Of a stretch of DNA of 48,189 nt, positions 3,307 to 47,684 are shown piece by piece. The position numbers were made by a program, and so were the translations under genes. Location of the stretch: NCBI GenBank assembly GCA_038233555.1, contig JBBSLT010000002.1:1-48189 (forward strand), given 5' to 3'. The DNA is from Acidimicrobiales bacterium. Its GTDB lineage: Bacteria; Actinomycetota; Acidimicrobiia; Acidimicrobiales; CADCSY01. Under the pieces are notes generated by a model, which was given only the letters and a program-made list of their open reading frames with translations, did no database searches and was not told the DNA's origin. Position 1 is the stretch's first letter, and the number at the start of each line of letters is the position of its first letter.

Positions 3307-5298
3307 ATGCCCCTTCGCAAAATGGGTCGCCGGTTACGGTCGACACCGATGGGCAACCACGCTGGCGACCTACGGGCTGTGCTTGCGCAAGTCGTCGCCC
3401 AACTCCCGGGAGGGGGCGAGGAGCGCCCCGGTCAGCTCCAGATGGCCGAGGAGGTGTCCGCCGCCATCCAAGACGGTCATCACCTCCTAGTGCAGGCGGG
3501 CACCGGTACGGGAAAAAGCCTCGGTTACCTGCTCCCGGCTGTCGTCATGGGTGTTCGGTGCGTGGTGGCCACGGCCACCAAGGCCCTCCAGGAGCAGCTC
3601 GTGGCCCACGACCTGCCGTTCCTGCACCGAACCCTCGGCATCGACTTCACCTGGGCGCTGCTCAAGGGCCGGTCCAACTACCTCTGCCAAGCAGCCCTGG
3701 CCGACGCCGTGGGCGAAGCCGCCCAAGGGGTTCTCGTCGAGGGCCCGGGGCTCGACCGCAACCGCCTCGATGCCGTGGTCGAGTGGGAGGCGACCACGGC
3801 CACCGGCGACCGGGCCGATCTGCCCTTCGCCGTGCCCAACCCGGCGTGGGGGAGCCTGTCGGTGAGCGCAGCCGAGTGTCCCGGGGCGCAGCGTTGCGCC
3901 TATGGCGACGACTGCTTCGCCGAGCACGCTCGCTCCCAGGCCGCCCAGGCCGACGTGGTGGTGGTCAACACCCACCTCTACGCCTCCCACCTGGCCAGCG
4001 GCGGGATGGTTCTACCTGACCACGACGTGGTGGTGATCGACGAGGCCCATGCCCTGGAGGACATCGCCGCCGCAACCCTCGGCGCCACCATCACCCCGAG
4101 CCAGGTGGTGCAGGTGGCGCGAGGCGTGCGCTCCCTCTTCACCGGCGACCACCAGTCCATCGCTCCTTTGGAGGCTGCCAGCAGCGGGCTGGCGGGGGTG
4201 CTGGCCGGCCTCGCCGGCCAGCGGGTCGACCCGGCGCAAGGCGACCTGGCCCTGGTGCTCTCAGGCGCTGCTGAAGCGGCCGCCGCGGCCATGGCCGCGG
4301 CCCGGTCCCTGGAGCCGAGCGGTGAGGCTGCCAGCCGCAAGGACCGCCTGGTGGTGCTGGCCGGGGGCCTCGTGAGTGACATCCGCCTTATCGCCGAGCT
4401 CTCCGACGACCAGGTGGCCTGGGTGGAGGACGGCCCCTTTCCAGCCCTGCGGGTGGCACCGATCGATGTGGGTGCGGAGCTGGCCACCAGGTTGTATCCG
4501 GAGACCACGGTGGTGCTCACCAGCGCCACTCTGGCCGTGGGCGGTAGCTTCGACCCGGTGGCCCGCAGCCTCGGCCTCGACCGCCCTGCTCCCGGCGAGG
4601 TCGCCGGGGAGGGCACCGGACCGGGGGTACCCGAGTGGCGGGGCGTCGACGTCGGCAGCCCGTTCGACTATCCCAACCAGGCGTTGCTGTACTGCGCCGC
4701 CCACCTTCCCGATCCCCGCCACGCCGACTACGAGGAGGCCATGCTCCATGAGCTGGAGGCCTTGATCCGAGCCGCCGGGGGCCGCACGCTGGCGCTGTTC
4801 ACCAGCCGCCGGGCCATGGAGGCGGCCCAAGCCCGCCTGACCGAACGCCTGCCCTGGGAGGTCCTGGTGCAAGACAGCCTGCCCCGCCCGCTCCTGCACC
4901 GGGCATTCCTTGACGACGAGACGTCGGTGCTGCTGGCCACCATGGGCTTCTGGCAGGGCTTCGACGCCCCCGGACGCACCTGCTCGCTGGTGGTGGTCGA
5001 CCGGCTGCCGTTCAGTCGCCCTGACGACCCGCAGGCGGCGGCGCGGCGCGAGGCGGCCACTCGGGCTCGCCGCAACGCCTTCGCCGCGGTCGACCTCCCC
5101 CGGGCGGCAATGCTGTTGGCCCAGGGTGCCGGACGACTCATCCGCTCGGCTGACGACCGGGGGGTGGTGGCGGTGCTCGACCGTCGCCTGGCCACGGCGT
5201 CGTACCGCTGGGACCTGGTCCGTAGTCTCCCGCCCATGCGCCGGACCAAGGAGCCAGACGAGGCCCGCCGGGTGCTGGCCGAGATCGCCGCCGGCTGA
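3307..5298 (+). CDS. dinG: ATP-dependent DNA helicase DinG (Rad3/XPD-like, Fe-S type)
   Basis: Walker A QAGTGTGKS, DEAH box VVIDEAHALED, four Cys between them (NYLC, ECPG, RCAY, DDCF) as in the Fe-S helicase domain. C-terminal helicase motifs (ATMGFWQGFD, GAGRLIRS). Confidence 0.85.
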   Translation: MPLRKMGRRLRSTPMGNHAGDLRAVLAQVVAQLPGGGEERPGQLQMAEEVSAAIQDGHHLLVQAGTGTGKSLGYLLPAVVMGVRCVVATATKALQEQLVAHDLPFLHRTLGIDFTWALLKGRSNYLCQAALADAVGEAAQGVLVEGPGLDRNRLDAVVEWEATTATGDRADLPFAVPNPAWGSLSVSAAECPGAQRCAYGDDCFAEHARSQAAQADVVVVNTHLYASHLASGGMVLPDHDVVVIDEAHALEDIAAATLGATITPSQVVQVARGVRSLFTGDHQSIAPLEAASSGLAGVLAGLAGQRVDPAQGDLALVLSGAAEAAAAAMAAARSLEPSGEAASRKDRLVVLAGGLVSDIRLIAELSDDQVAWVEDGPFPALRVAPIDVGAELATRLYPETTVVLTSATLAVGGSFDPVARSLGLDRPAPGEVAGEGTGPGVPEWRGVDVGSPFDYPNQALLYCAAHLPDPRHADYEEAMLHELEALIRAAGGRTLALFTSRRAMEAAQARLTERLPWEVLVQDSLPRPLLHRAFLDDETSVLLATMGFWQGFDAPGRTCSLVVVDRLPFSRPDDPQAAARREAATRARRNAFAAVDLPRAAMLLAQGAGRLIRSADDRGVVAVLDRRLATASYRWDLVRSLPPMRRTKEPDEARRVLAEIAAG

Positions 5299-5319: not shown

Positions 5320-7170
5320 GTGTCCACCATCGGGACCCCGCGAGCAGGGATACTGACGACGGTGAAGAAGGATCACGGCGGGACATCTGATTCGTTGGTG
5401 GCGACGGTCACCGGCGCCGGCGCGCTCGCCCTGTCGCTGCTGCTCGCACCTTTGCTCCTCAACGGGGAGCAAGCAGCGACCGTGGCGGCCCCCTCGCCGG
5501 CGGGAGCGGTGGCGGCGGTGGCCGAGAGCTACCTCGAAGCCTGGAGCCAGGGCGACCTGACCGCCATGTCGATGCTCCTGTCGGCTACCCCCCCCGACTT
5601 CGACACCATCCACGAGCTGATCGCCGAGCAGCTCCGCCTCGACGACGCCCGGTTCCAAGCGGGTGCTCCCCTGGTGTCCGGCGACGCCGCCGTGGTCCCG
5701 TTCGAGGCCAGCCTCGACCTCGCCGGCCTCGGCACCTGGAGCTACCAAGGGCAACTCGACCTCGTGCTCGGCGTGGTCGAGCCCCCGGTGTTGCGCACCG
5801 CACCGGTGGCCGACGAGGCCGAGGGGGCCATGTCCTCGGTGGCGTCACCTGAAGACCTCCCGCTGAAGGCTGTCGACGCCAAGGTGCCCCGCTGGTCGGT
5901 GGCGTGGTCGCCGGCGACCATCCACCCCGTCCTCGGTACCGGCCAGACCCTGACCAGCGAGCGGGTCGTGGCCGACCGGGCCCCGCTCGTCGACGTCAAA
6001 GGCACCGTGCTCACCGGCGACGACGAGCTGGAGCTGGCGGCGCTGTCGTCCCAGGTGCTGGGCCGCCTGGGTGGGCTCGACGAGGCTGGTGCGGCGACGC
6101 AAGGTCAGCCGTACCTCCCCGGCGACGAGGTGGGGACCTCCGGGCTCCAGTCCGCCTTCGAGTCACAGCTCTCGGGTCGACCTTCGGGCGAGGTTCGCAT
6201 CGTCGACGACGAAGGCGAGCTGGTTGAGGTCGTGCACGTCTTCGCCGGCGAGGAGCCGCAGCCGGTGCAGACGACCTTCGACGCGGAGATCCAGGAGGCG
6301 GCCGAAGCCGCCCTCGCCCGCCTGTCGCACCCGGCGGCACTGGTGGCCATCGACGCCCCCACGGGCCAGATCCGGGCGGTGGCCAGCCGGCCGACGATCG
6401 GCTTCAACCGGGCGCTGGTGGGCCAGTACCCGCCTGGCTCAACCTTCAAGGTGGTCACTACCACCGCCCTGCTCGGCGCCGGGGTGACACCCGAGACGCC
6501 GACCACGTGTCCGGCGACCACATCGGTCGAGGGGTACCGGTTCTCCAACGCCGGAGGCGAGGTGCTCGGCGACATCCCCTTCGGGATGGCCTTCTACCGG
6601 AGCTGTAACACCGCCTTCGTCGGCCTGGCCGACGAGCTCGCCGCCGACGACCTGGTGGCCGCGGCGGAGATGTACGGGTTCAACGGTGACTTCGCCCTGC
6701 CCGTCGCCTCCGAGGCGGGGAGCTTCCCCGATCCTTCGGGGCCCATCGACCAGGCCTCAGCCGCCATCGGCCAGGGGCGGGTGACGGCGACCCCGTTGCA
6801 GATGGCCACCGTCGCCGCCGCCGTAGCCTCAGGAACCTGGCACGAGCCCACCATGGTCCTGCCCACCCCGCCGGCCGACGGGGTGGAGCCGAGTGGCCGA
6901 GCCTTGCCGGCGGGTGTGGCCGCCACCCTCCGAGAGCTGATGCTGTCGGTGGTGAAGGAGGGCACGGCCACGGCGGCCCGGTTGCCGGGAGAGCCGGTGG
7001 GGGGCAAGACCGGTACGGCTGAGTTCGGCACGGCCAGCCCGCCTCGGACCCACGCTTGGTTCATCGGCTTTCGGGGCGACCTGGCCGTGGCCGTGCTGGT
7101 CGAAGACGCCGGCTTCGGCGGCTCGGTGGCTGCCCCCGTCGCCCGCAACTTCTTCGCCGCCCTCGATTAG
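5320..7170 (+). CDS. penicillin-binding protein, transpeptidase domain (class B-like) with N-terminal TM anchor and NTF2/MecA_N-like region
   Basis: Active-site motifs STFK (GSTFKVVT), SCN (YRSCNTAF) and KTGT (GGKTGTAEF). Hydrophobic anchor GAGALALSLLLAPLLL. Confidence 0.85.
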   Translation: MSTIGTPRAGILTTVKKDHGGTSDSLVATVTGAGALALSLLLAPLLLNGEQAATVAAPSPAGAVAAVAESYLEAWSQGDLTAMSMLLSATPPDFDTIHELIAEQLRLDDARFQAGAPLVSGDAAVVPFEASLDLAGLGTWSYQGQLDLVLGVVEPPVLRTAPVADEAEGAMSSVASPEDLPLKAVDAKVPRWSVAWSPATIHPVLGTGQTLTSERVVADRAPLVDVKGTVLTGDDELELAALSSQVLGRLGGLDEAGAATQGQPYLPGDEVGTSGLQSAFESQLSGRPSGEVRIVDDEGELVEVVHVFAGEEPQPVQTTFDAEIQEAAEAALARLSHPAALVAIDAPTGQIRAVASRPTIGFNRALVGQYPPGSTFKVVTTTALLGAGVTPETPTTCPATTSVEGYRFSNAGGEVLGDIPFGMAFYRSCNTAFVGLADELAADDLVAAAEMYGFNGDFALPVASEAGSFPDPSGPIDQASAAIGQGRVTATPLQMATVAAAVASGTWHEPTMVLPTPPADGVEPSGRALPAGVAATLRELMLSVVKEGTATAARLPGEPVGGKTGTAEFGTASPPRTHAWFIGFRGDLAVAVLVEDAGFGGSVAAPVARNFFAALD

Positions 7171-23570: not shown

Positions 23571-23694
23571 GGCCGCCGGATGGCGGCCCAGAAAGGTGTT
23601 CAGTGCGGAGGTTGCCGGGCTTTGCCCGGTGACCGGAGCACAACCAAGGCTCGCCGTCGAACCTATGGTTCGGCGGTGATGGACGAGTGAAGGG
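23571..23694 (-). repeat. stop-codon-proximal multi-hairpin element, copy A
   Basis: Read on the minus strand it starts 5 nt after the fur-like stop codon. Shares boxes CCCT(T)CACTCG, GTGCTCCG, CGGGCAAAGCCCG and CTGAACAC with 28454-28551, and the CGCCGAACC/GGTTCG..CGGCG hairpin with 47508-47536. Confidence 0.7.
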
Positions 23695-24160: not shown

Positions 24161-24874
24161 TCAATGAGAATCGCCAGCCTGGACCCGCTCCAAGCGGTTC
24201 TCGTAGTAGGCCTCCATGGCCTCGTTGGCCGACCGGATGGCGGCCAGGGCGTCGACCACGGCCGGCCATGACCCACCGGGGATGGCGCTGTAGAGCTCGC
24301 CGTCGCCGAGACCGGTGGTGATGCGATTGCCGGCACAACCCAGGCTGAGGGCGCTCTGGCTCGACTGCATGGCGAGGGGAAGGATGGCGCAGGCCGGCCG
24401 ACCGGCCACGGGGGCGGTCATGGACGTCACCCCGGCCCGCAGGGCGGCCTCGTGCAGCAGCATGGCCTGAGCGGGGTTGGCCGCTACGACCACCACGTCG
24501 GCGTCGAAGGGCACCTTCCCCACCGGTCCGTAGGCGACGTAGGCGGGGGCATCGTCGACGGTGGGAATGGCGGTGACCTCGTCCGGATCGATGTAGCCGG
24601 CGCCGACCATGAGCTCGATCGAGGCGACCAGATCGCCGGCCTGTTCCTCGGGAAGGCTCAGACCGTGGACGTGGCTGCCCACGGCGCAGTGACGGTGGGC
24701 GGCCGAGTCGGTGTAGAAGGTGTTGCCCGTCCGGGCATGGCGCCAGAAGGCGCAGCCGGCGGCCACCTCACCGCCGGACCAGGGGGCGACGCCCTCGGGC
24801 GGTTCGGCCAGAAAGGCGATGGCGACGGGCTCACCGTCGAGGCCGAGGCGGTCGAGTTCGTCGTGGTTAGGCAT
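24161..24874 (-). CDS. DUF169 domain-containing protein
   Basis: Matches my recollection of the DUF169 pattern (AFWRHA....FYT...H..C.VG..VHG...). Start set at ATG 24874 (MPNHDELD). Upstream ORF extension is low-complexity. 26 nt upstream of the fur-like gene. Confidence 0.65.
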   Translation of the reverse strand: MPNHDELDRLGLDGEPVAIAFLAEPPEGVAPWSGGEVAAGCAFWRHARTGNTFYTDSAAHRHCAVGSHVHGLSLPEEQAGDLVASIELMVGAGYIDPDEVTAIPTVDDAPAYVAYGPVGKVPFDADVVVVAANPAQAMLLHEAALRAGVTSMTAPVAGRPACAILPLAMQSSQSALSLGCAGNRITTGLGDGELYSAIPGGSWPAVVDALAAIRSANEAMEAYYENRLERVQAGDSH

Positions 24875-24971
24875 CTGGCCACTCTCGCGCAAACGCCCGG
24901 CTCCGTGCCGGTCGATGCACCCCCCGACCCATCCGTCCGACCGCCCGCCCGTCCGCCCGTCCCTCCCTCGA

Positions 24972-25016
24972 TCTTTGTCGCGTTCTGCACCGTACGGGTC
25001 CACAGCGCGACAAAGA
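24972..25016. repeat. palindromic hairpin repeat TCTTTGTCGCG-N23-CGCGACAAAGA, copy 1
   Basis: 11-bp perfect arms (24972-24982 / 25006-25016) with a 23-nt spacer. C-rich tract on the left and G-rich tract on the right. Second copy at 36695-36747. Confidence 0.75.
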
Positions 25017-25026
25017 ACGAAAGGGG

Positions 25027-25917
25027 ATGGAGAGAAGGGGGTGGGGAGGAGCGTCGGTAGCGTGGTCGTCGATGGGTGAGACCGGGAGGATCGAGGCGCC
25101 GTTGGCCGGTCGCCGCATCGGTCTCACCGCCGACCGCAAGGCCACGGAGCAAGCCGAGCTGTTTCGCCGGCGGGGCGCCATGGTGCTCCACGGACCCACC
25201 ATGACCACCGTCGACCTGTCCGGCGAGGACGCGCTACGCCACGCCACCGTCACCCTCGTGGAGGACCCGCCTGACCACCTTGTGGTCACCACCGGCATGG
25301 GGCTGCGCCTGTGGTTGGAGGCGGCCGGCGGCTGGGGCCTGGAGGACACGCTGGTCAAAGCCTTGAGCACGACCACCATCGTCGCCCGGGGGGCCAAGGC
25401 GGCCTCGGCCGTGCGCCGGGCCGGTCTGGACGTCGCCTGGCGGGCACCTGGTGAGAACATGGCCGAGGTGGTGGCCCACCTGGCCGAGACGACGGATGGC
25501 GGGAGCCGGCCCCGGATTGCACTCCAGCTCTTCGATCCCGCCGATCACGCCTCCACCACGGCCCTGCGGGCCCTCGCCAGCGAGTTGGTGGAGGTGCCCG
25601 TCTACCGCTGGCGCCGCCCCGACGACCTGGGACCGGCTCAGGAGTTGGTGAGCGCCACCATCGCCGGCGAGCTCGATGCCGTGACCTTCACCAGCCAGCC
25701 GGCGGTACGCAACCTGGTGGGCATCGCCGCCGACCAAGGCCGGGCCGGTGCGCTCCTGGCTGTCCTCAACGCCGGCGTGGTAGCCGCCTGCGTCGGACCG
25801 GTGTGCGCCGAGGCGGCGAGGGAGGTAGGGATCAACGACCCGCTGTGGCCCGATCCTCCCCGCCTGCCGGCCATGGTCCGCCAGGTCACCGAGCACCTCG
25901 TGGCGGGGAGATCCTGA
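25027..25917 (+). CDS. uroporphyrinogen-III synthase family protein (HemD-like, stand-alone)
   Basis: HEM4-type pattern (LAGRRIGLT..., VTFTSQPAVRNL). Start uncertain (ATG 25027 or ATG 25072). Confidence 0.65.
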   Translation: MERRGWGGASVAWSSMGETGRIEAPLAGRRIGLTADRKATEQAELFRRRGAMVLHGPTMTTVDLSGEDALRHATVTLVEDPPDHLVVTTGMGLRLWLEAAGGWGLEDTLVKALSTTTIVARGAKAASAVRRAGLDVAWRAPGENMAEVVAHLAETTDGGSRPRIALQLFDPADHASTTALRALASELVEVPVYRWRRPDDLGPAQELVSATIAGELDAVTFTSQPAVRNLVGIAADQGRAGALLAVLNAGVVAACVGPVCAEAAREVGINDPLWPDPPRLPAMVRQVTEHLVAGRS

Positions 25918-28450: not shown

Positions 28451-28453
28451 TCG

Positions 28454-28551
28454 CCCTCACTCGCTTCGCTCCGTTCGGGCGAGCTGGGTCGTGCTCCGAC
28501 CGACGGGCAAAGCCCGCCGGTCTCCGCCCTGAACACTTCCTGGTCATCCAG
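28454..28551 (+). repeat. stop-codon-proximal multi-hairpin element, copy B
   Basis: Starts 4 nt after the cysH TAA. 37 of 46 hand-aligned core positions are identical to copy A (reverse complement of 23595-23640). The CACTTCCTGG box is shared with copy C. Confidence 0.7.
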
Positions 28552-28595
28552 AGGGGCGCCTTCGACGTTTCTGTGGCCGGTGGCCACCTCTAGCC

Positions 28596-35067: not shown

Positions 35068-35663
35068 CGGTCGATCACCTCGACGTCGATGGGCCCGAGG
35101 GTGCCGTCGTTGGTGAGCTCCGCCGAGCAGGCGGTGACGCCGACGATCACGTCCATCTCGGCCCGCAGGTCGACATGGTCGCCTGGTGCCGAACTCGGAG
35201 GCGAGATGGTGATCCGGCCCGACGTCGGGTCGGCGGTGACCACCATGAACAGATTGAGCGTGGTTGGGATCTGGTCGGGCTCGATACCGAAGGGCGCCAG
35301 GTGCCTGGCCAGGTTCTCGAAGCAGCTCGGGTGGCCGACGGCGCCGTAGAGGCGCTGGAACATCTCTGACGAGCAGGGAGTGATCAGGAAGTCGTGGCGG
35401 CCGGCGGTGTCGGCGGTGATGGTCAGCAGCGGTGTGCTGCGGTTGGAGTACAACACGCTGCCGGTGCTGACGTAGATCGTGCCGCCGTAGTCGATGGTCC
35501 GACCCGAGGAGAGCCACTCGGAGGGGTCGGCGGCGACGAAAGCGGCGAGATCGGCCACCTGGCCGCCGGTGGGCGACGACACCCGCAGGGTCTGGCCGGC
35601 GGGGACGGACAGAGCGCAGCCAGTCTGGGCCTCAAGGTGGATGCTTCGCCCAGAGGTGGTCAT
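35058..35663 (-). CDS. DUF1989 domain protein (urea carboxylase-associated family)
   Basis: Pattern GQTLRVSSPTGGQVADL...SSGRTIDY...HDFLITPCS...HPSCFENL... typical of DUF1989. Start set at ATG 35663. Confidence 0.7.
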   Translation of the reverse strand: MTTSGRSIHLEAQTGCALSVPAGQTLRVSSPTGGQVADLAAFVAADPSEWLSSGRTIDYGGTIYVSTGSVLYSNRSTPLLTITADTAGRHDFLITPCSSEMFQRLYGAVGHPSCFENLARHLAPFGIEPDQIPTTLNLFMVVTADPTSGRITISPPSSAPGDHVDLRAEMDVIVGVTACSAELTNDGTLGPIDVEVIDRYP

Positions 35664-35718
35664 GTTGTCGCCGCCATCGGTGAATGGTCTACTACCAGAT
35701 GTGGCGGGGTCGTCTGCG

Positions 35719-36681
35719 ATGCCGACAGCCACGCCTGGTCGCCGGCGTGGTCTGCGCTTGTCCGAGTTGTTGACCTTGTCGGACCAGACCGACGAGGACG
35801 GCCGGCTGCTGTTGGAGGATTCCGCTCCCCGCCAGGCCCAGAAGCGACTCCGGCGTTCCGGGATCGCCATGACCGAGGCCTGTTGCGATTACGCCGACTC
35901 GCCGTCACGCCTTGGCGGGCGCATGAACGTGGCCGCCTACGAGGCCCTGCGTCACGACGTGGCCGAGGTGCTCGACGGCTTCGCCTGGTTGGCCGAGCTG
36001 CGAGCCGGCGGAGCGCCGGGCGTCGGTCGGGCCAGCCTCCAGGCCCTGATCGACGTGGCCAACCTCGGCAGCACCTTGCCCCTGGTGGCCTTCCACCGTA
36101 CGCAGCGCCAGGTGCCGGCGCAGGGCGCCCTGCCCGCATTCGTCGCCTCGATCTTCAAGGCCAGCCGGGGGCTGTTCTCGGGTGCGGTGGCCATGCTCAA
36201 CGACGGCTACGAACCGGAGGCGAACCTGACCAGCGAGGAGGTCCTGACCTTCGTCGAGGCCCAGGGCCACTTTCGTCGGACCGAGACGGAGCGGGTGTGC
36301 GCCGCCCCCACCCGTCTGATCGCCCGCACCATCGAGGCCGTCCTCACCGGTCGGGGGGCTGAATCCGCCCGCAGCGCCCTGGGCGACCACTTGGATGCCG
36401 ACGACCTGTGGCTCTACTTCAGCCTGCATGACAGCTTCGGCCAGGCGTTGAGCACCTACCGCTTCGTGCTGGCCAACCTCAGCGAGGACCACCCCGGCGC
36501 CGGCGTGGAGGAACTTCTCGGGGCGCCGGTCGAGGTGGGAGGGCGAAAAGGGACCTTCGGCGACTTCACCGACGCCGTGATCCATACCGCCACCGTCACC
36601 CAGAACCGCATGAACGAGGTGCTGGGCCGGGCCGGCGACGCCCCGCCCCTTACCCTCCCCGGTCTGCTGCAGATCCTGTAG
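35719..36681 (+). CDS. hypothetical protein (helical, no recognised family)
   Basis: Coding-like GC3 from about 35740 onward. Start uncertain (in-frame ATGs at 35662, 35719, 35869). Divergent to DUF1989. Confidence 0.5.
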   Translation: MPTATPGRRRGLRLSELLTLSDQTDEDGRLLLEDSAPRQAQKRLRRSGIAMTEACCDYADSPSRLGGRMNVAAYEALRHDVAEVLDGFAWLAELRAGGAPGVGRASLQALIDVANLGSTLPLVAFHRTQRQVPAQGALPAFVASIFKASRGLFSGAVAMLNDGYEPEANLTSEEVLTFVEAQGHFRRTETERVCAAPTRLIARTIEAVLTGRGAESARSALGDHLDADDLWLYFSLHDSFGQALSTYRFVLANLSEDHPGAGVEELLGAPVEVGGRKGTFGDFTDAVIHTATVTQNRMNEVLGRAGDAPPLTLPGLLQIL

Positions 36682-36694
36682 GGCAAACCCTCCT

Positions 36695-36747
36695 CCGTTC
36701 TTTGTCGCGTTACGCACACCCTGGGTAGCTCGCGCGACAAAGAACGG
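36695..36747. repeat. palindromic hairpin repeat CCGTTCTTTGTCGCG-N23-CGCGACAAAGAACGG, copy 2
   Basis: 15-bp perfect arms with a 23-nt spacer. Flanked by CCCTCCTCC on the left and GGGGCGGGGGGTGGG on the right. Lies between convergent genes. Confidence 0.75.
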
Positions 36748-36768
36748 GGCGGGGGGTGGGATCCCGGG

Positions 36769-38502
36769 TCAAGAGACCGGGGCCGTCTCCTTCAGGTCGG
36801 TCTTGGCCGCGGCGCTCGACCCGTTGCCCGCCATCGGTGCACCCATGCCGCCGGCGGCACCGGGAGCCTCGGCCAGACGCATGACGTGGACCGACCCGGT
36901 GATCTTCTCGCCGCTGGGCTTGCGGGGGGTGTTGTTCCCGAGGTTGGCGAGACGTCGCTCGTCCTCCTCGGTGAGCTGCTGCTTGGGCAGCGGGGCCAGG
37001 TGGGCCACGTCGGCGGCCTTGATCCCGATGCCCTCACCGACGCGATTCCCATAGTCGTCGTCGATCAGGTAGAGGTGCCAGATCATGCGCTCCTGGACCA
37101 CCCGCTCGCATTTGCCGAACAGGTCGATGAAGTTGGCGACCAGGTCGTCGCGCTCCCAGTCCATCATGGTGCGGTAGCGGTCGGCGGCCTGTTGGTAGTC
37201 GTTGGTGCGGGGCAGGCGGGCCCGGGTGAGCTGGCCCTCGATCATCGGTCCCTGGCGGTCGTGGGTTGGGAACTCGCCCTCCTGCAGGCCACCGAGGGCG
37301 CTCGGCTCGTAGTTGACATGGGGGTTCTCACCGGCCCCGTCGACGAAGTACGTCATCTGCCCGTCCCGCTGGTTGGTGCGGACCTTGGCCGCCTTGGCCT
37401 GGTTCACGGGTAGCTGGAGGTAGTTGGGCCCGACCCGGTAGCGCTGGGTGTCGGAGTAGGAGAAGGTGCGTCCCACCAGCATCTTGTCGTCGGAGAAGTC
37501 GAGGCCGTCGACGATGACCCCGGTGCCCATGGCGATCTGCTCGTTCTCGGCGAACATGTTCTCCGGGGCCCGGTTGAGTACCATCTTGCCCACCGACCGC
37601 AGCGGGAAGGCGTCCTCGGGCCAGGTCTTGGTGTCGTCGAGGGGGTCGAAGTCGAGCTCGGGGTGTTCGTCGTCGCTCATGATCTGCACCAAAAGCTCCC
37701 ACTCGGGATAGTCCCGCCGGGCGATGGCGTCGAGCAGGTCCTTGGTGGCGTGGCCGAGGTCCTGGCCCTGGATCTCGTCGGCCTCGGCCTGGGTCAGACA
37801 GGCCACGCCCGCCTTGGGGTGCCAGTGGAACTTGACCAGCACCGTGTCGCCGTCGGCGTTGACCATCTTGTAGGTGTTGACGCTCGAACCCTCCATGTGG
37901 CGGTAGTCGGTGGGGATGCCCCGGGGGCTGAAGAGATGCGTCAGCAGGTGCATCGACTCGGGCGTGTTGGACATGAAGTCGAAGATCCGGTTGGGCTCTT
38001 GGCGGAAGGTCACCGGGTCGGGCTTGAGGGAGTGGATGACGTCGGGGAACTTGATGGCGTCGCGGATGAAGAACACGGCGAGGTCGTTGCCCACCATGTC
38101 CCAGTTGCCGTCCTCGGTATAGAACTTGACGGCGAAGCCGCGCGGGTCTCGCGCCGTCTCCGAGGAGTCACGCCCGCCGATCACGGTGGAGAAGCGCACG
38201 GCCACGTCGCAACGCTTGCCCTTCTCGGCGAAGAGCTTGGCCCGGGTGTAGGTGGCGGCGGGTTCGTCGCCCACCATGCCGCTCGCCTCGAAGTAGCCGA
38301 AGGTGGTGATGCCCCGGGCGTGGACCACCCGCTCGGGGATGCGCTCACGGTCGAAGTGGCTGATCTTCTCCAGGAACTGGTAGTTCTCCAGCGTGGCCGG
38401 GCCGCGAGGCCCGACCGTGCGCTGGTTCTGGTTGTCGTAGACGGTGTGGCCCTGGCGGTTGGTGAGGAGCTTGGCGCTGTTGTCCTCGGTGGGGTCAGTC
38501 AT
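36769..38502 (-). CDS. katA: monofunctional heme catalase with C-terminal extension
   Basis: [15 protein letters not shown] (distal His), RFSTV, and a proximal Tyr region ([14 protein letters not shown]). About 70 extra low-complexity residues at the C-terminus. Confidence 0.9.
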
Positions 38503-47503: not shown

Positions 47504-47645
47504 GGCCTCGCCGCCGAACCGGAGGTTCGGCGGCGAACTGGTGGTGCCCCGACCGGCGGCGGAGCCACCGGTCGGGGCGCTGACCACTTCCTGGCCGAGC
47601 TTCGCTCGGCTGGGCCGCCGGCCAGGGCGGGCCGCCTTCGGCGGC
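47504..47645 (+). repeat. stop-codon-proximal multi-hairpin element, copy C (extended)
   Basis: Starts 4 nt after the prs TAG. Hairpins at 47508-47536 (13 bp), 47546-47578 (11 bp), 47594-47610 (7 bp) and 47631-47645 (6 bp). Linkers ACTGGTGGTGCCCCG and CTGACCACTTCCTGG match copies A and B. Confidence 0.7.
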
Positions 47646-47684
47646 GGGTGTGGCCGGCGGCAAACGCCGTCCTAGACTCACACG

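What the first reader, a model, noticed from the sequence alone, without database searches (positions are those of the whole stretch)
24944..25051. Second repeat family: long palindrome TCTTTGTCGCG-N23-CGCGACAAAGA, copy 1 in a divergent promoter region
24972-24982 and 25006-25016 are perfect 11-bp inverted arms separated by 23 nt (TTCTGCACCGTACGGGTCCACAG, which contains the palindrome CCGTACGG). An almost identical structure occurs 11.7 kb away at 36695-36747, with 15-bp arms CCGTTCTTTGTCGCG/CGCGACAAAGAACGG, again a 23-nt spacer, and the spacer again starts TT..GCAC and contains GGGT. Both copies have a C-rich left flank (CCCTCCCTCG / CCCTCCTCCG) and a G-rich right flank (..GGGGGTGGGG / GGGGGGTGGG), so the full unit is an imperfect palindrome of about 90 nt. 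Copy 1 lies between the divergent DUF169-fur operon and the hemD-like/sulfite reductase genes, where no terminator is expected. That points to a dispersed element or a protein-binding site rather than an ordinary terminator. On the minus strand the flank 24944-24967 also forms a canonical G-quadruplex motif (GGGAGGGACGGGCGGACGGGCGGG).
Basis: seen in the sequence. Interest (0 to 1): 0.62.

Follow-up and report, generated by a model that had tools for sequence, protein, structure and literature searches.

The report
Solo palindromes of a nuclease-linked repeat
The two long palindromes are single copies of a repeat found across Acidimicrobiia that was inserted at gene ends, and two copies of the same repeat always bracket the gene of one DNA-binding nuclease, much like REP repeats and their RAYT enzyme but with an unrelated protein.

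Summary
Both palindromes are real: exact 11- and 15-bp arms, a 23-nt spacer, and no such pattern in 100 shuffles. They belong to a repeat family restricted to Acidimicrobiia.

- **Anatomy.** Two 24-bp arms flank a 3-nt centre. The box TTTGTCGCG is conserved, the inner arms are genome-specific and covary, and the flanks are C-rich on the left and G-rich on the right.
- **Insertion.** The two closest syntenic relatives lack copy 1 (87-nt spacer against about 197 nt). The one relative whose fetched stretch reaches the catalase site lacks copy 2 (19 nt against 87 nt).
- **Location.** Family copies mostly sit 1-38 nt after stop codons, often between convergent genes. They have no U-tract and show no single-strand RNA signature.
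- **Partner gene.** In all 12 genomes examined, a 300-aa protein (AbiEi-type DNA binder fused to a Vsr-fold nuclease) has its gene preceded by the palindrome, and in 11 it is bracketed on both sides. A distant paralogue is bracketed by a different palindrome.
- **Geometry.** The arm layout matches the published AbiEi operator.

Best reading: these are solo binding sites of that protein, in a REP/RAYT-like partnership. Protein binding and protein-driven spread are inferred, not shown. The G-quadruplex motif is unremarkable.

The parts
24969..25019 (.). Copy 1, core palindrome: two 24-bp arms (24969-24992 and 24996-25019) around a 3-nt centre.
   Evidence: Covariance-model hit of 63.6 bits over 24962-25026. 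The sequence is, and the DNA fold has z = -4.2.
24972..24982 (.). Copy 1, left conserved box TCTTTGTCGCG. Its perfect partner CGCGACAAAGA lies at 25006-25016.
   Evidence: The nine central letters were required by the search pattern and are therefore invariant in the 85 family copies.
25006..25016 (.). Copy 1, right conserved box CGCGACAAAGA.
24983..25005 (.). Copy 1, 23-nt inner part. The inner arms TTCTGCACCG and GGGTCCACAG pair at 7 of 10 positions, counting one G-T wobble. This is the genome-specific part of the family.
24948..25048 (.). Approximate extent of the segment present in the window but absent from the orthologous DUF169|hemD spacer of two relatives (edges uncertain by about 10 nt). 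It comprises the C-rich left flank, the palindrome and the G-rich right flank.
   Evidence: Alignment A3. The spacer is 87 nt in L255 and L256, against about 197 nt here.
36696..36746 (.). Copy 2, core palindrome: arms 36696-36719 and 36723-36746. The outer 15 bp (36695-36709 and 36733-36747) pair perfectly. The inner arms are degraded, with 5 of 10 pairs.
   Evidence: 56.2 bits. The DNA fold has z = -6.5.
36682..36768 (.). The whole 87-nt convergent spacer that holds copy 2. The orthologous spacer in relative L256 is 19 nt, so about 68 nt are extra here.
   Evidence: Alignment A4 and the gene table.
24164..24874 (-). DUF169 gene. Its start faces copy 1.
   Evidence: Pfam PF02596, E = 1.8e-26.
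25072..25914 (+). HemD-like uroporphyrinogen-III synthase gene, followed by sulfite reductase. Its start faces copy 1.
   Evidence: Pfam PF02602, E = 8.5e-31.
36769..38502 (-). Catalase gene. Its stop codon lies 22 nt from the core of copy 2.
   Evidence: Pfam PF00199, E = 6e-162.
35494..36681 (+). Hypothetical gene. Its stop codon lies 14 nt before the core of copy 2.
   Evidence: no Pfam match.

Best explanation
The two elements are solo copies of a palindromic repeat family restricted to Acidimicrobiia. Each copy has two 24-bp arms around a 3-nt centre, extended by a C-rich left flank and a G-rich right flank.

The partner of the family is a protein of about 305 aa, here called X. It has an AbiEi-type two-domain DNA binder at the N-terminus and a Vsr-fold PD-(D/E)XK nuclease at the C-terminus. 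Its own gene is bracketed by two copies of the palindrome, usually in the order pth - palindrome - X - palindrome - mfd. In this window's lineage that position would fall just beyond the window's end.

**Shown:**
- The family exists, and its inner arms covary and are genome-specific.
- Copies lie just after stop codons.
- The window's copies are insertions relative to the closest relatives fetched.
- X genes are bracketed by cognate palindromes, and a distant paralogue is bracketed by a different one.

**Inferred:**
- One X monomer binds each 24-bp arm on double-stranded DNA, as AbiEi does on its two 23-bp repeats separated by 3 bp. The copy in front of X would then act as its autoregulatory operator.
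- The scattered copies are extra docking sites kept alike within a genome, and occasionally multiplied, through X's nuclease. Cutting or nicking at the palindrome would be followed by copying or gene conversion, in the manner of REP/RAYT.

Any effect on neighbouring genes would be secondary. Copy 2 could stabilise or end the two convergent transcripts, and copy 1 could let X sit between two divergent promoters.
For: - **Family and structure.** Exact-arm copies occur only in Acidimicrobiia or Actinomycetota MAGs among 185,579 species genomes. In 85 distinct copies, the pairs in columns 8-31/35-58 covary: score 0.338 against 0.136 in shuffles (0 of 500 reached it) and about 0.10 for slid partners.
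- **Genome-specific inner arms.** Identity is 0.775 within genomes and 0.50 between genomes, permutation p < 0.0002. Copies at one orthologous site (atpC | LigT-GNAT) carry different inner arms in L020 and L140.
- **Location.** Of 53 copies resolved on both sides, 23 are convergent, 24 tandem and 6 divergent. The stop-to-box distance is mostly 1-38 nt, median about 12.
- **No RNA-strand signature.** There are 28 G-T against 30 A-C mismatches when copies are oriented by gene direction, and loops occur in both orientations.
- **Insertions.** The syntenic relatives L255 and L256 have an 87-nt DUF169|hemD spacer, and L256 has a 19-nt hypothetical|catalase spacer, with no hit there from the model. 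The model finds 0 hits in 537 kb of 80 orthologous sulfite-reductase loci.
- **X association.** X homologues of 47-81% identity from 12 genomes all have the palindrome 33-58 nt before the start codon. Eleven of the 12 also have one at or just after the stop codon, in at least four different gene neighbourhoods. Box variants differ between cassettes. A 38%-identical paralogue (L210) is bracketed by an unrelated palindrome of the same geometry.
- **X fold.** The model has pLDDT 92. The N-terminal half matches AbiEi (6Y8Q) and Rv2827c (1ZEL). The C-terminal half matches I-Bth0305I (3R3P, TM 0.76), Vsr (1CW0) and 3HRL. PADLOC gives AbiEi at E = 6e-30. D238, G252 and H256 are invariant and E249 nearly so.
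- **AbiEi operator geometry.** Two 23-bp inverted repeats separated by 3 bp (PMC7319586).
- **Orphan half-sites.** Lone boxes sit next to the full palindromes in L168.
Against: - No binding or cleavage data exist. All mechanism beyond the association is inference.
- X could not be located in the window's own genome.
- Copy number is low, roughly 6-10 in this genome and 0 in 537 kb of relatives. REP families have hundreds of copies.
- In MFD02840 the two solo copies (L014, L018) have a different box and different inner arms from the one X cassette seen there (L164), so a one-to-one match is not shown in that genome.
- Symmetric protein recognition and hairpin formation both predict the observed covariation, so they cannot be separated here.
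- An earlier check of this scan on other DNA (note e1-2329229) reports that a pre-set test of 'repeat goes with the gene' came out against it and that a scatter test was not met.
- No target-site duplication or cut site could be defined.
Confidence: 0.6

Rival explanations
1. The solo copies are scars of a mobile palindrome-X-palindrome cassette. The roughly 1.1-kb unit inserts at gene ends. Recombination between its two flanking palindromes, which are also direct repeats, then deletes X and leaves one palindrome, as with solo LTRs. On this reading the palindromes never move on their own.
For: Cassettes sit in at least four different neighbourhoods. Like solo copies, they lie exactly between convergent stop codons: L164, L173 and L174. 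Solo copies have the C-rich left flank of an upstream copy and the G-rich right flank of a downstream copy. X decays in place in some genomes: it appears frameshifted in LC3_1 and has lost its downstream copy in L165.
Against: In most genomes X sits at one conserved syntenic site, pth|mfd, which looks vertical rather than mobile. No site was found that holds a cassette in one genome and a solo copy in another. At least 28 distinct solo copies of one subtype were seen in rhizosphere metagenomes, with no adjacent X in any of those loci.
Confidence: 0.2
2. The family consists of RNA-level hairpins: factor-independent or bidirectional terminators, or 3' stabilisers. Sequence is shared only by descent, and the copies around X merely insulate that gene.
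For: Copies lie 1-38 nt after stop codons and are enriched between convergent genes. One follows the atp operon in three genomes. The stems are very stable.
Against: No U-tract occurs on either strand. The U-rich arm is on the 5' side. Copy 1 and 5 other copies lie between divergent starts. G-U pairs show no excess on the sense strand. A conserved 9-14-bp box and a fixed 24+3+24 geometry across a whole class are not needed for termination. The upstream copy sits at a fixed distance in front of the X start. Rfam gives only generic sub-threshold hairpin matches.
Confidence: 0.12
3. The palindromes are operators of a regulon. X would be a transcription factor that controls the genes next to each copy, for example DUF169-fur, hemD-sir and catalase in this window.
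For: X has an AbiEi-type repressor module. Copy 1 lies between two divergent promoters. The window's neighbours (fur, sulfite reductase/siroheme, catalase) could share a redox or iron theme.
Against: About two thirds of the gene ends facing a copy are 3' ends. Neighbouring genes are functionally unrelated: thiolase, DXS, NifU, PdxS, HypD/E, acyl-CoA dehydrogenase, ABC transporters, P450 and others. The sites are absent from the orthologous spacers of close relatives. The invariant nuclease residues have no role in this model.
Confidence: 0.08

Closest known systems
REP/REPIN sequences and their RAYT genes (REPtrons) of Proteobacteria
   Same: Both are extragenic palindromic repeats at gene ends. 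Both show genome-specific sequence variants with within-genome homogeneity. Both have a single cognate gene bracketed by two copies of the repeat, and that gene is largely vertically inherited at a fixed locus.
   Different: The partner here is an AbiEi-type DNA binder fused to a Vsr-fold PD-(D/E)XK nuclease, not a Y1 HUH transposase. The palindrome is 51 bp with a fixed 24+3+24 layout and no GTAG head. Copy numbers are in single or low double digits rather than hundreds. No strand asymmetry or extrahelical bases were seen.
AbiEi antitoxin and its operator (S. agalactiae AbiE; M. tuberculosis Rv2827c)
   Same: The N-terminal two thirds of X has the AbiEi/Rv2827c fold. The palindrome in front of X has the geometry of the AbiEi operator, two 23-bp inverted repeats 3 bp apart (PMC7319586).
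   Different: No AbiEii/DUF1814 toxin gene follows X. Instead X carries a nuclease domain. A second palindrome follows the gene, and further copies are scattered at gene ends around the chromosome.
Vsr-family nucleases: Vsr repair endonuclease, DUF559 (NGO0050, 3HRL) and the homing endonuclease I-Bth0305I
   Same: The C-terminal roughly 100 aa of X has this fold, with an invariant or near-invariant D...E-x-D-G...H motif.
   Different: X is not next to a cytosine methyltransferase and is not inside an intron. It is tethered to a sequence-specific wHTH module and is framed by long palindromes.
Conserved-sequence hairpin terminators and REP-like hairpins of actinobacteria, such as TRIT of M. tuberculosis (recalled from memory, not checked here) and the other hairpin family in this window (23571-23694, 28451-28595, 47504-47684)
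   Same: Both are GC-rich stable hairpins placed just behind stop codons, often between convergent genes.
   Different: This family has an A/T-containing conserved box, a fixed geometry, a cognate bracketed gene, and members in promoter regions.

Membership tests
REP/RAYT (REPtron) | The cognate gene flanked by the repeats encodes a Y1 HUH transposase (RAYT, Pfam Y1_Tnp). | tested here: not met
   The bracketed gene matches Pfam AbiEi_4 and REase_MTES_1575, and its fold matches AbiEi plus Vsr/I-Bth0305I. Clustering ORFs within 3 kb of 115 copies gave only common metabolic and regulatory families among the ten cluster representatives scanned.
REP/RAYT (REPtron) | A single gene is bracketed by two copies of the genome's dispersed extragenic palindrome. 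| tested here: met
   Eleven of 12 X genes are bracketed on both sides and one has only the upstream copy. Solo copies of the same type occur elsewhere in LC3_1.
REP/RAYT (REPtron) | A short (20-40 nt) imperfect palindrome with a conserved GTAG head, present in tens to hundreds of copies. | tested here: not met
   The core is 51 bp with no GTAG. There are about 6-10 copies in the window's genome and none in 537 kb of relatives.
AbiE type IV toxin-antitoxin operator | An AbiEi-fold protein with its gene preceded by two inverted repeats of about 23 bp separated by a few bp. | tested here: met
   Foldseek matches 6Y8Q and 1ZEL and PADLOC gives AbiEi at E = 6e-30. Arms of 24 bp with a 3-nt centre end 33-58 nt before the X start. 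The geometry is taken from PMC7319586.
AbiE type IV toxin-antitoxin operator | A partner AbiEii (DUF1814 nucleotidyltransferase) toxin gene in the same operon. | tested here: not met
   X is followed directly by the second palindrome and then by pth, ECH, SDR or AMP-binding genes.
AbiE type IV toxin-antitoxin operator | The protein binds the repeats and represses its own promoter. | not testable with these tools
   This needs EMSA, a reporter assay or DAP-seq.
Intrinsic (Rho-independent) terminator | A GC-rich stem-loop followed directly by a U-tract. | tested here: not met
   The scan found no terminator-like site. The tails read GAACGAAAGGGG and GAACGGGGCGGG.
Intrinsic (Rho-independent) terminator | Position downstream of a stop codon in the direction of transcription. 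| tested here: inconclusive
   Copy 2 and most family members meet this. Copy 1 lies between two gene starts.
MITE | Terminal inverted repeats plus a target-site duplication, with relation to a transposase-bearing parent element. | tested here: inconclusive
   Comparing filled and empty sites shows insertions of about 101 and 68 nt, but the edges cannot be fixed and no duplication is visible. No transposase is associated.
Described RNA families (Rfam 15) | A match at or above a family's gathering score. | tested here: not met
   Only a tRNA elsewhere in the window reached threshold. At the elements there are only miRNA-type hairpin matches of 16-27 bits, against thresholds of 52-100.
G-quadruplex element | A G3+N1-7 motif occurring more often than composition predicts, or conserved across copies. 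| tested here: not met
   The motif is present at 24944-24967 on the minus strand. The window has 11 such motifs against about 21 in shuffles. This flank varies in length between strains, and copy 2 has no equivalent.

The most novel reading that the evidence does not exclude
AbiEi-Vsr proteins and their palindromes would form a second, independently evolved kind of long-lived nuclease-plus-repeat partnership in bacteria. The protein family has 6,490 clusters at 50% identity with E <= 1e-30. A sequence-specific winged-helix module would dock two monomers on a 51-bp palindrome. The Vsr-fold nuclease would then nick or cut it, and repair or copying would keep all copies in a genome alike and seed new copies at gene ends. 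The result would be functionally parallel to REP/RAYT but built on an unrelated enzyme and working on double-stranded or cruciform DNA.
Probability: 0.3. Interest if true: 0.85.

Novelty: new variant of a known kind. Interest (0 to 1): 0.66.

Why it matters
REP/RAYT systems are the only well-understood case of a bacterial housekeeping-like enzyme that maintains its own population of dispersed palindromes, and they are essentially proteobacterial. This repeat family in Acidimicrobiia has the same genomic logic: a bracketed single gene, genome-specific variants and insertion at gene ends. Its partner, however, is an AbiEi-type DNA binder fused to a Vsr-fold nuclease.

That protein family is very large and currently uncharacterised. 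In the sources searched its members carry labels such as 'AbiEi antitoxin', 'very-short-patch-repair endonuclease' or 'regulator of viral defense system'.

If the partnership is real, three things follow:
- It assigns a function to thousands of such genes.
- It explains a class of conserved intergenic hairpins in actinobacterial genomes that can be mistaken for terminators or structured RNAs.
- It gives a testable protein-DNA pair with a defined 51-bp site.

No paper describing this arrangement was found in the library searched. Earlier notes of this scan report the same cassette in at least 27 other genomes.

Tried and rejected
- I could not take a whole-genome census of the window's genome or compare presence of the repeat with presence of the gene across genomes.
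- **Walking beyond the window's end.** The first look-up with prs found nothing. With the start codon corrected, the only contig is a 4.1-kb Logan contig that ends right after prs.
- **RNA evidence.** Four metatranscriptome runs hold only conserved catalase fragments from other organisms and give no coverage of the hairpin.
- **Within-species presence/absence.** All same-species contigs in four DNA runs carry both copies.
- **Nucleotide alignment with LC3_1 and YX2bin15.** The copy-1 spacer is too diverged in these genomes to define an empty site. Closer relatives were needed.
- **A RAYT or transposase next to the copies.** ORF clustering found only common metabolic and regulatory families.
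- **Literature search by sequence.** It returned only primers and unrelated hits.
- **Rejected readings.** A chance palindrome is excluded (0 of 100 shuffles). An attC-type or dif-type recombination site is unlikely, because I saw no resemblance to the core motifs as I recall them and there is no array. A functional G-quadruplex is not supported, because such motifs are not enriched. The nested palindrome in PVC-group MAGs (L001, L003, L005 and others) shares the 11-mer but has a different architecture and different flanks, so it is a different element.
Full report
**1. The observation**

TCTTTGTCGCG-N23-CGCGACAAAGA occurs at 24972-25016 and at 36699-36743, and none of 100 dinucleotide-preserving shuffles of the window gave a match. 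Copy 2 has perfect 15-bp arms. Both copies have a C-rich left flank and a G-rich right flank.

As single-stranded DNA, the 51-nt cores fold far better than shuffles, with z = -4.2 and -6.5. Pfam confirms the gene contexts. Copy 1 lies between the starts of a DUF169 gene (minus strand) and a HemD-like gene (plus strand, followed by sulfite reductase). Copy 2 lies between the stop of a hypothetical gene and the stop of a catalase gene.

The G-quadruplex motif in the left flank of copy 1 exists. However, such motifs are less frequent in the window (11) than in composition-matched shuffles (about 21). In other strains that flank is a length-variable microsatellite.

**2. A family restricted to one class**

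- Among one genome per species, the exact 11-bp arms with a 23-nt spacer occur only in Acidimicrobiia or Actinomycetota MAGs, with 1-5 copies each.
- A different nested palindrome in PVC-group MAGs shares the 11-mer by coincidence.
- Relaxing to 9-bp arms added more Acidimicrobiales genomes, while the hits elsewhere have non-palindromic spacers.

I aligned 85 distinct copies. The unit is two 24-bp arms around a 3-nt centre. It has an outer covarying part (cGTTC/GAACg, cGAAC/GTTCg or GACC/GGTC), then the box TTTGTCGCG, then about 10 variable but complementary inner positions.

Covariation is strong: score 0.338 against 0.136 in column shuffles (0 of 500 reached it) and about 0.10 when partners are slid. 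The box is invariant only because the search required it. Cassette copies found later show variants such as TTTGTCGGA, GTTGTCGAC, TTTGTCAGA and TTCTTTGG.

**3. DNA element or RNA?**

G-T and A-C mismatches are equally frequent (28 against 30) even when each copy is oriented by the direction of the adjacent gene. The loop triplets occur equally in both orientations. So there is no sign of selection on one transcribed strand.

There is no U-tract. Rfam gives only generic sub-threshold hairpin matches.

**4. Where copies lie**

Of 53 copies with both neighbours resolved, 23 are between convergent genes, 24 between co-directional genes and 6 between divergent genes. Where a gene end faces the element, its stop codon is mostly 1-38 nt (median about 12) from the box. 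From general knowledge, roughly 15% of bacterial gene pairs are convergent, so convergent pairs are enriched here.

Neighbouring genes are functionally unrelated, which argues against a regulon.

**5. Concerted evolution and old sites**

Copies from one genome share a genome-specific inner arm. Identity is 0.775 within genomes and 0.50 between genomes, permutation p < 0.0002.

Some sites are old. The spacer after atpC, in front of a LigT-GNAT gene, holds a copy in LC3_1 (L020) and in RYN_34 (L140) with the same genes on both sides. A metagenome contig (L096) holds one next to the same atp genes. The inner arms differ between the three.

**6. The window's copies are insertions**

Two relatives were fetched: L255 (HemD 82% identical) and L256 (HemD 76%, Prs 90%). 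Both are collinear with the window from DUF3090 through fur, DUF169, hemD, sir and cysH, and L256 continues to catalase.

| Site | Relatives | Window | Extra in window |
|---|---|---|---|
| DUF169\|hemD spacer | 87 nt (L255, L256) | about 197 nt | about 101 nt: C-rich flank, palindrome, G-rich flank |
| hypothetical\|catalase spacer | 19 nt (L256) | 87 nt | about 68 nt |

The model finds no copy at those sites and no copy at all in 537 kb around the sulfite-reductase gene of 80 other Acidimicrobiia.

Within the species both copies are fixed. Contigs from four soil, sand and hypolith runs all carry them. A relative about 88% identical also has copy 2.

Three to five further contigs of the same depth carry related palindromes, so this genome has roughly 6-10 copies.

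**7. The partner gene**

The model search of the fetched loci showed second, diverged copies about 1 kb from the first in L004 and L016. In both loci the two copies bracket one gene, called X here, between pth and mfd.

I then fetched X homologues of 47-81% identity from ten more genomes.

- Every one has the palindrome ending 33-58 nt before its start codon (most often about 45 nt).
- All but one have a second copy at or just after the stop codon.
- The usual neighbourhood is glmU-prs-rplY-pth-[palindrome]-X-[palindrome]-mfd. This places X just beyond the end of this window, which stops in rplY.
- In L164, L173 and L174 the cassette sits in other neighbourhoods, exactly between convergent stop codons.
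- A 38%-identical paralogue that lies by chance in a sulfite-reductase locus (L210) is bracketed by an unrelated palindrome (GGTGCGTGAAAC...GTTTCACGCACC) of the same geometry, again with a C-rich left flank. Protein and palindrome therefore diverge together.
- Between the upstream palindrome and the start codon lies a conserved motif, TGTCACACC-N7-9-TTGACT, probably the X promoter.
- In L168, orphan half-sites sit beside the full palindromes.

**8. What X is**

A structure model built from a 22-sequence alignment has pLDDT 92.

- **N-terminal part (about 200 residues).** It matches the AbiEi antitoxin (6Y8Q) and Rv2827c (1ZEL).
- **C-terminal part (about 100 residues).** It matches the catalytic domain of the homing endonuclease I-Bth0305I (3R3P, TM 0.76), Vsr (1CW0) and the DUF559 protein 3HRL.
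- **Other evidence.** PADLOC calls the N-terminal part AbiEi at E = 6e-30. D238, G252 and H256 are invariant and E249 nearly so across the alignment.
- **Family size.** There are 6,490 clusters at 50% identity with E <= 1e-30.

AbiEi represses its own operon by binding, one monomer per repeat, to two 23-bp inverted repeats separated by 3 bp (PMC7319586). That is the geometry of this palindrome.

**9. Reading**

The window's two elements are solo copies of the palindrome that frames X. The association, the co-divergence, the insertion status and the location rules are shown.

Two steps are inferred. First, that X binds each arm. Second, that its nuclease keeps the copies alike or multiplies them. 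I put these at roughly 0.65 and 0.35.

The main alternative for the origin of solo copies is deletion of X from a once-inserted cassette by recombination between its two palindromes. A terminator-only reading and a regulon reading fit the data poorly.

Three points weigh against a simple story:
- Copy number is low.
- In one genome (MFD02840) the two solo copies differ in subtype from the one cassette seen.
- An earlier check of this scan on other DNA did not confirm that repeat and gene travel together.

**10. Novelty**

I found the X association before reading the scan's earlier notes. Those notes describe the same palindrome-framed AbiEi-DUF559 cassette in at least 27 other actinobacterial genomes. 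They are not independent evidence.

In the paper library I found no description of it. The PD-(D/E)XK survey lists DUF559 only as Vsr-like.

I rate this a new variant of a known kind. It has REP/RAYT-like logic, an AbiEi-like operator and an unrelated nuclease.

Noticed in passing
window 24919-24935: The C-rich stretch left of copy 1 (units CCGTCCGACC and CCATCCGA) varies in length between strains. Contigs from other runs carry insertions of 8 nt (TCCGACCA) or 28 nt here.
   Followed up: partly
L162:2501-3413 (same as L016:3728-4640): The X gene of MAG LC3_1 changes reading frame near codon 76, apparently through a one-base indel. A near-identical intact protein (P0003) exists in JGI data. This is either a pseudogene or an assembly error.
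   Followed up: partly
L164, L171, L173, L174, L172, L163, L166: 10-45 nt before the X start: A conserved motif TGTCACACC-N7-9-(G)TTGACT/TGGGAT lies about 10 nt before the start codon, between the upstream palindrome and X. It is probably the X promoter, with a leaderless or short-leader transcript. The window's solo copies lack it.
   Followed up: partly
L168:2860-2890 and 3915-3943: Each X-flanking palindrome of the closest relative is preceded, 8-9 nt upstream, by an orphan half-site TCTTTGTCGCG. That makes three boxes per side, reminiscent of the multiple repeats in the Rv2827c promoter.
   Followed up: no
L210:5442-5522 and 6473-6552: A 38%-identical X paralogue in an Iamiaceae MAG is bracketed by a different palindrome (GGTGCGTGAAAC...GTTTCACGCACC), again with a C-rich left flank. 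In L248 only an upstream palindrome was seen, and in L232 none.
   Followed up: partly
L255:4784-4848; L256:17058-17126; L255:17390-17458: The closest relatives carry other long palindromes with related heads (GTTCTTGCGTCAAC... and CCTTTGTGTGCAC...). They sit between TauE|UDG and hemC|cobA, where the window has none. These look like further subfamilies with presence/absence differences.
   Followed up: no
L001, L003, L005, L009, L010, L012, L017 (MAG ELA067); L019; L021: An unrelated repeat in PVC-group MAGs contains the same 11-mer in a nested palindrome, TCTTTGTCGCG-AGCTTTGTCGACAAAGCT-CGCGACAAAGA. It has conserved flanks (gcgatgcatttgcgtcgca ... ttgggttgcgggctg) and at least 7 copies in one MAG.
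   Followed up: no
L020:3469-3513, L140:5227-5267, L096:54-94: A family copy sits directly after atpC, the end of the atp operon, in three genomes. In L020 and L140 it also lies in front of a LigT-GNAT fusion gene. Each copy carries a different inner arm.
   Followed up: partly
L256:3240-4032: Relative GCA_965610265 has a HepT-like/Polbeta gene pair between the sigma-factor gene and TauE. It is absent from the gene table of L255. I did not check whether the window has it.
   Followed up: no
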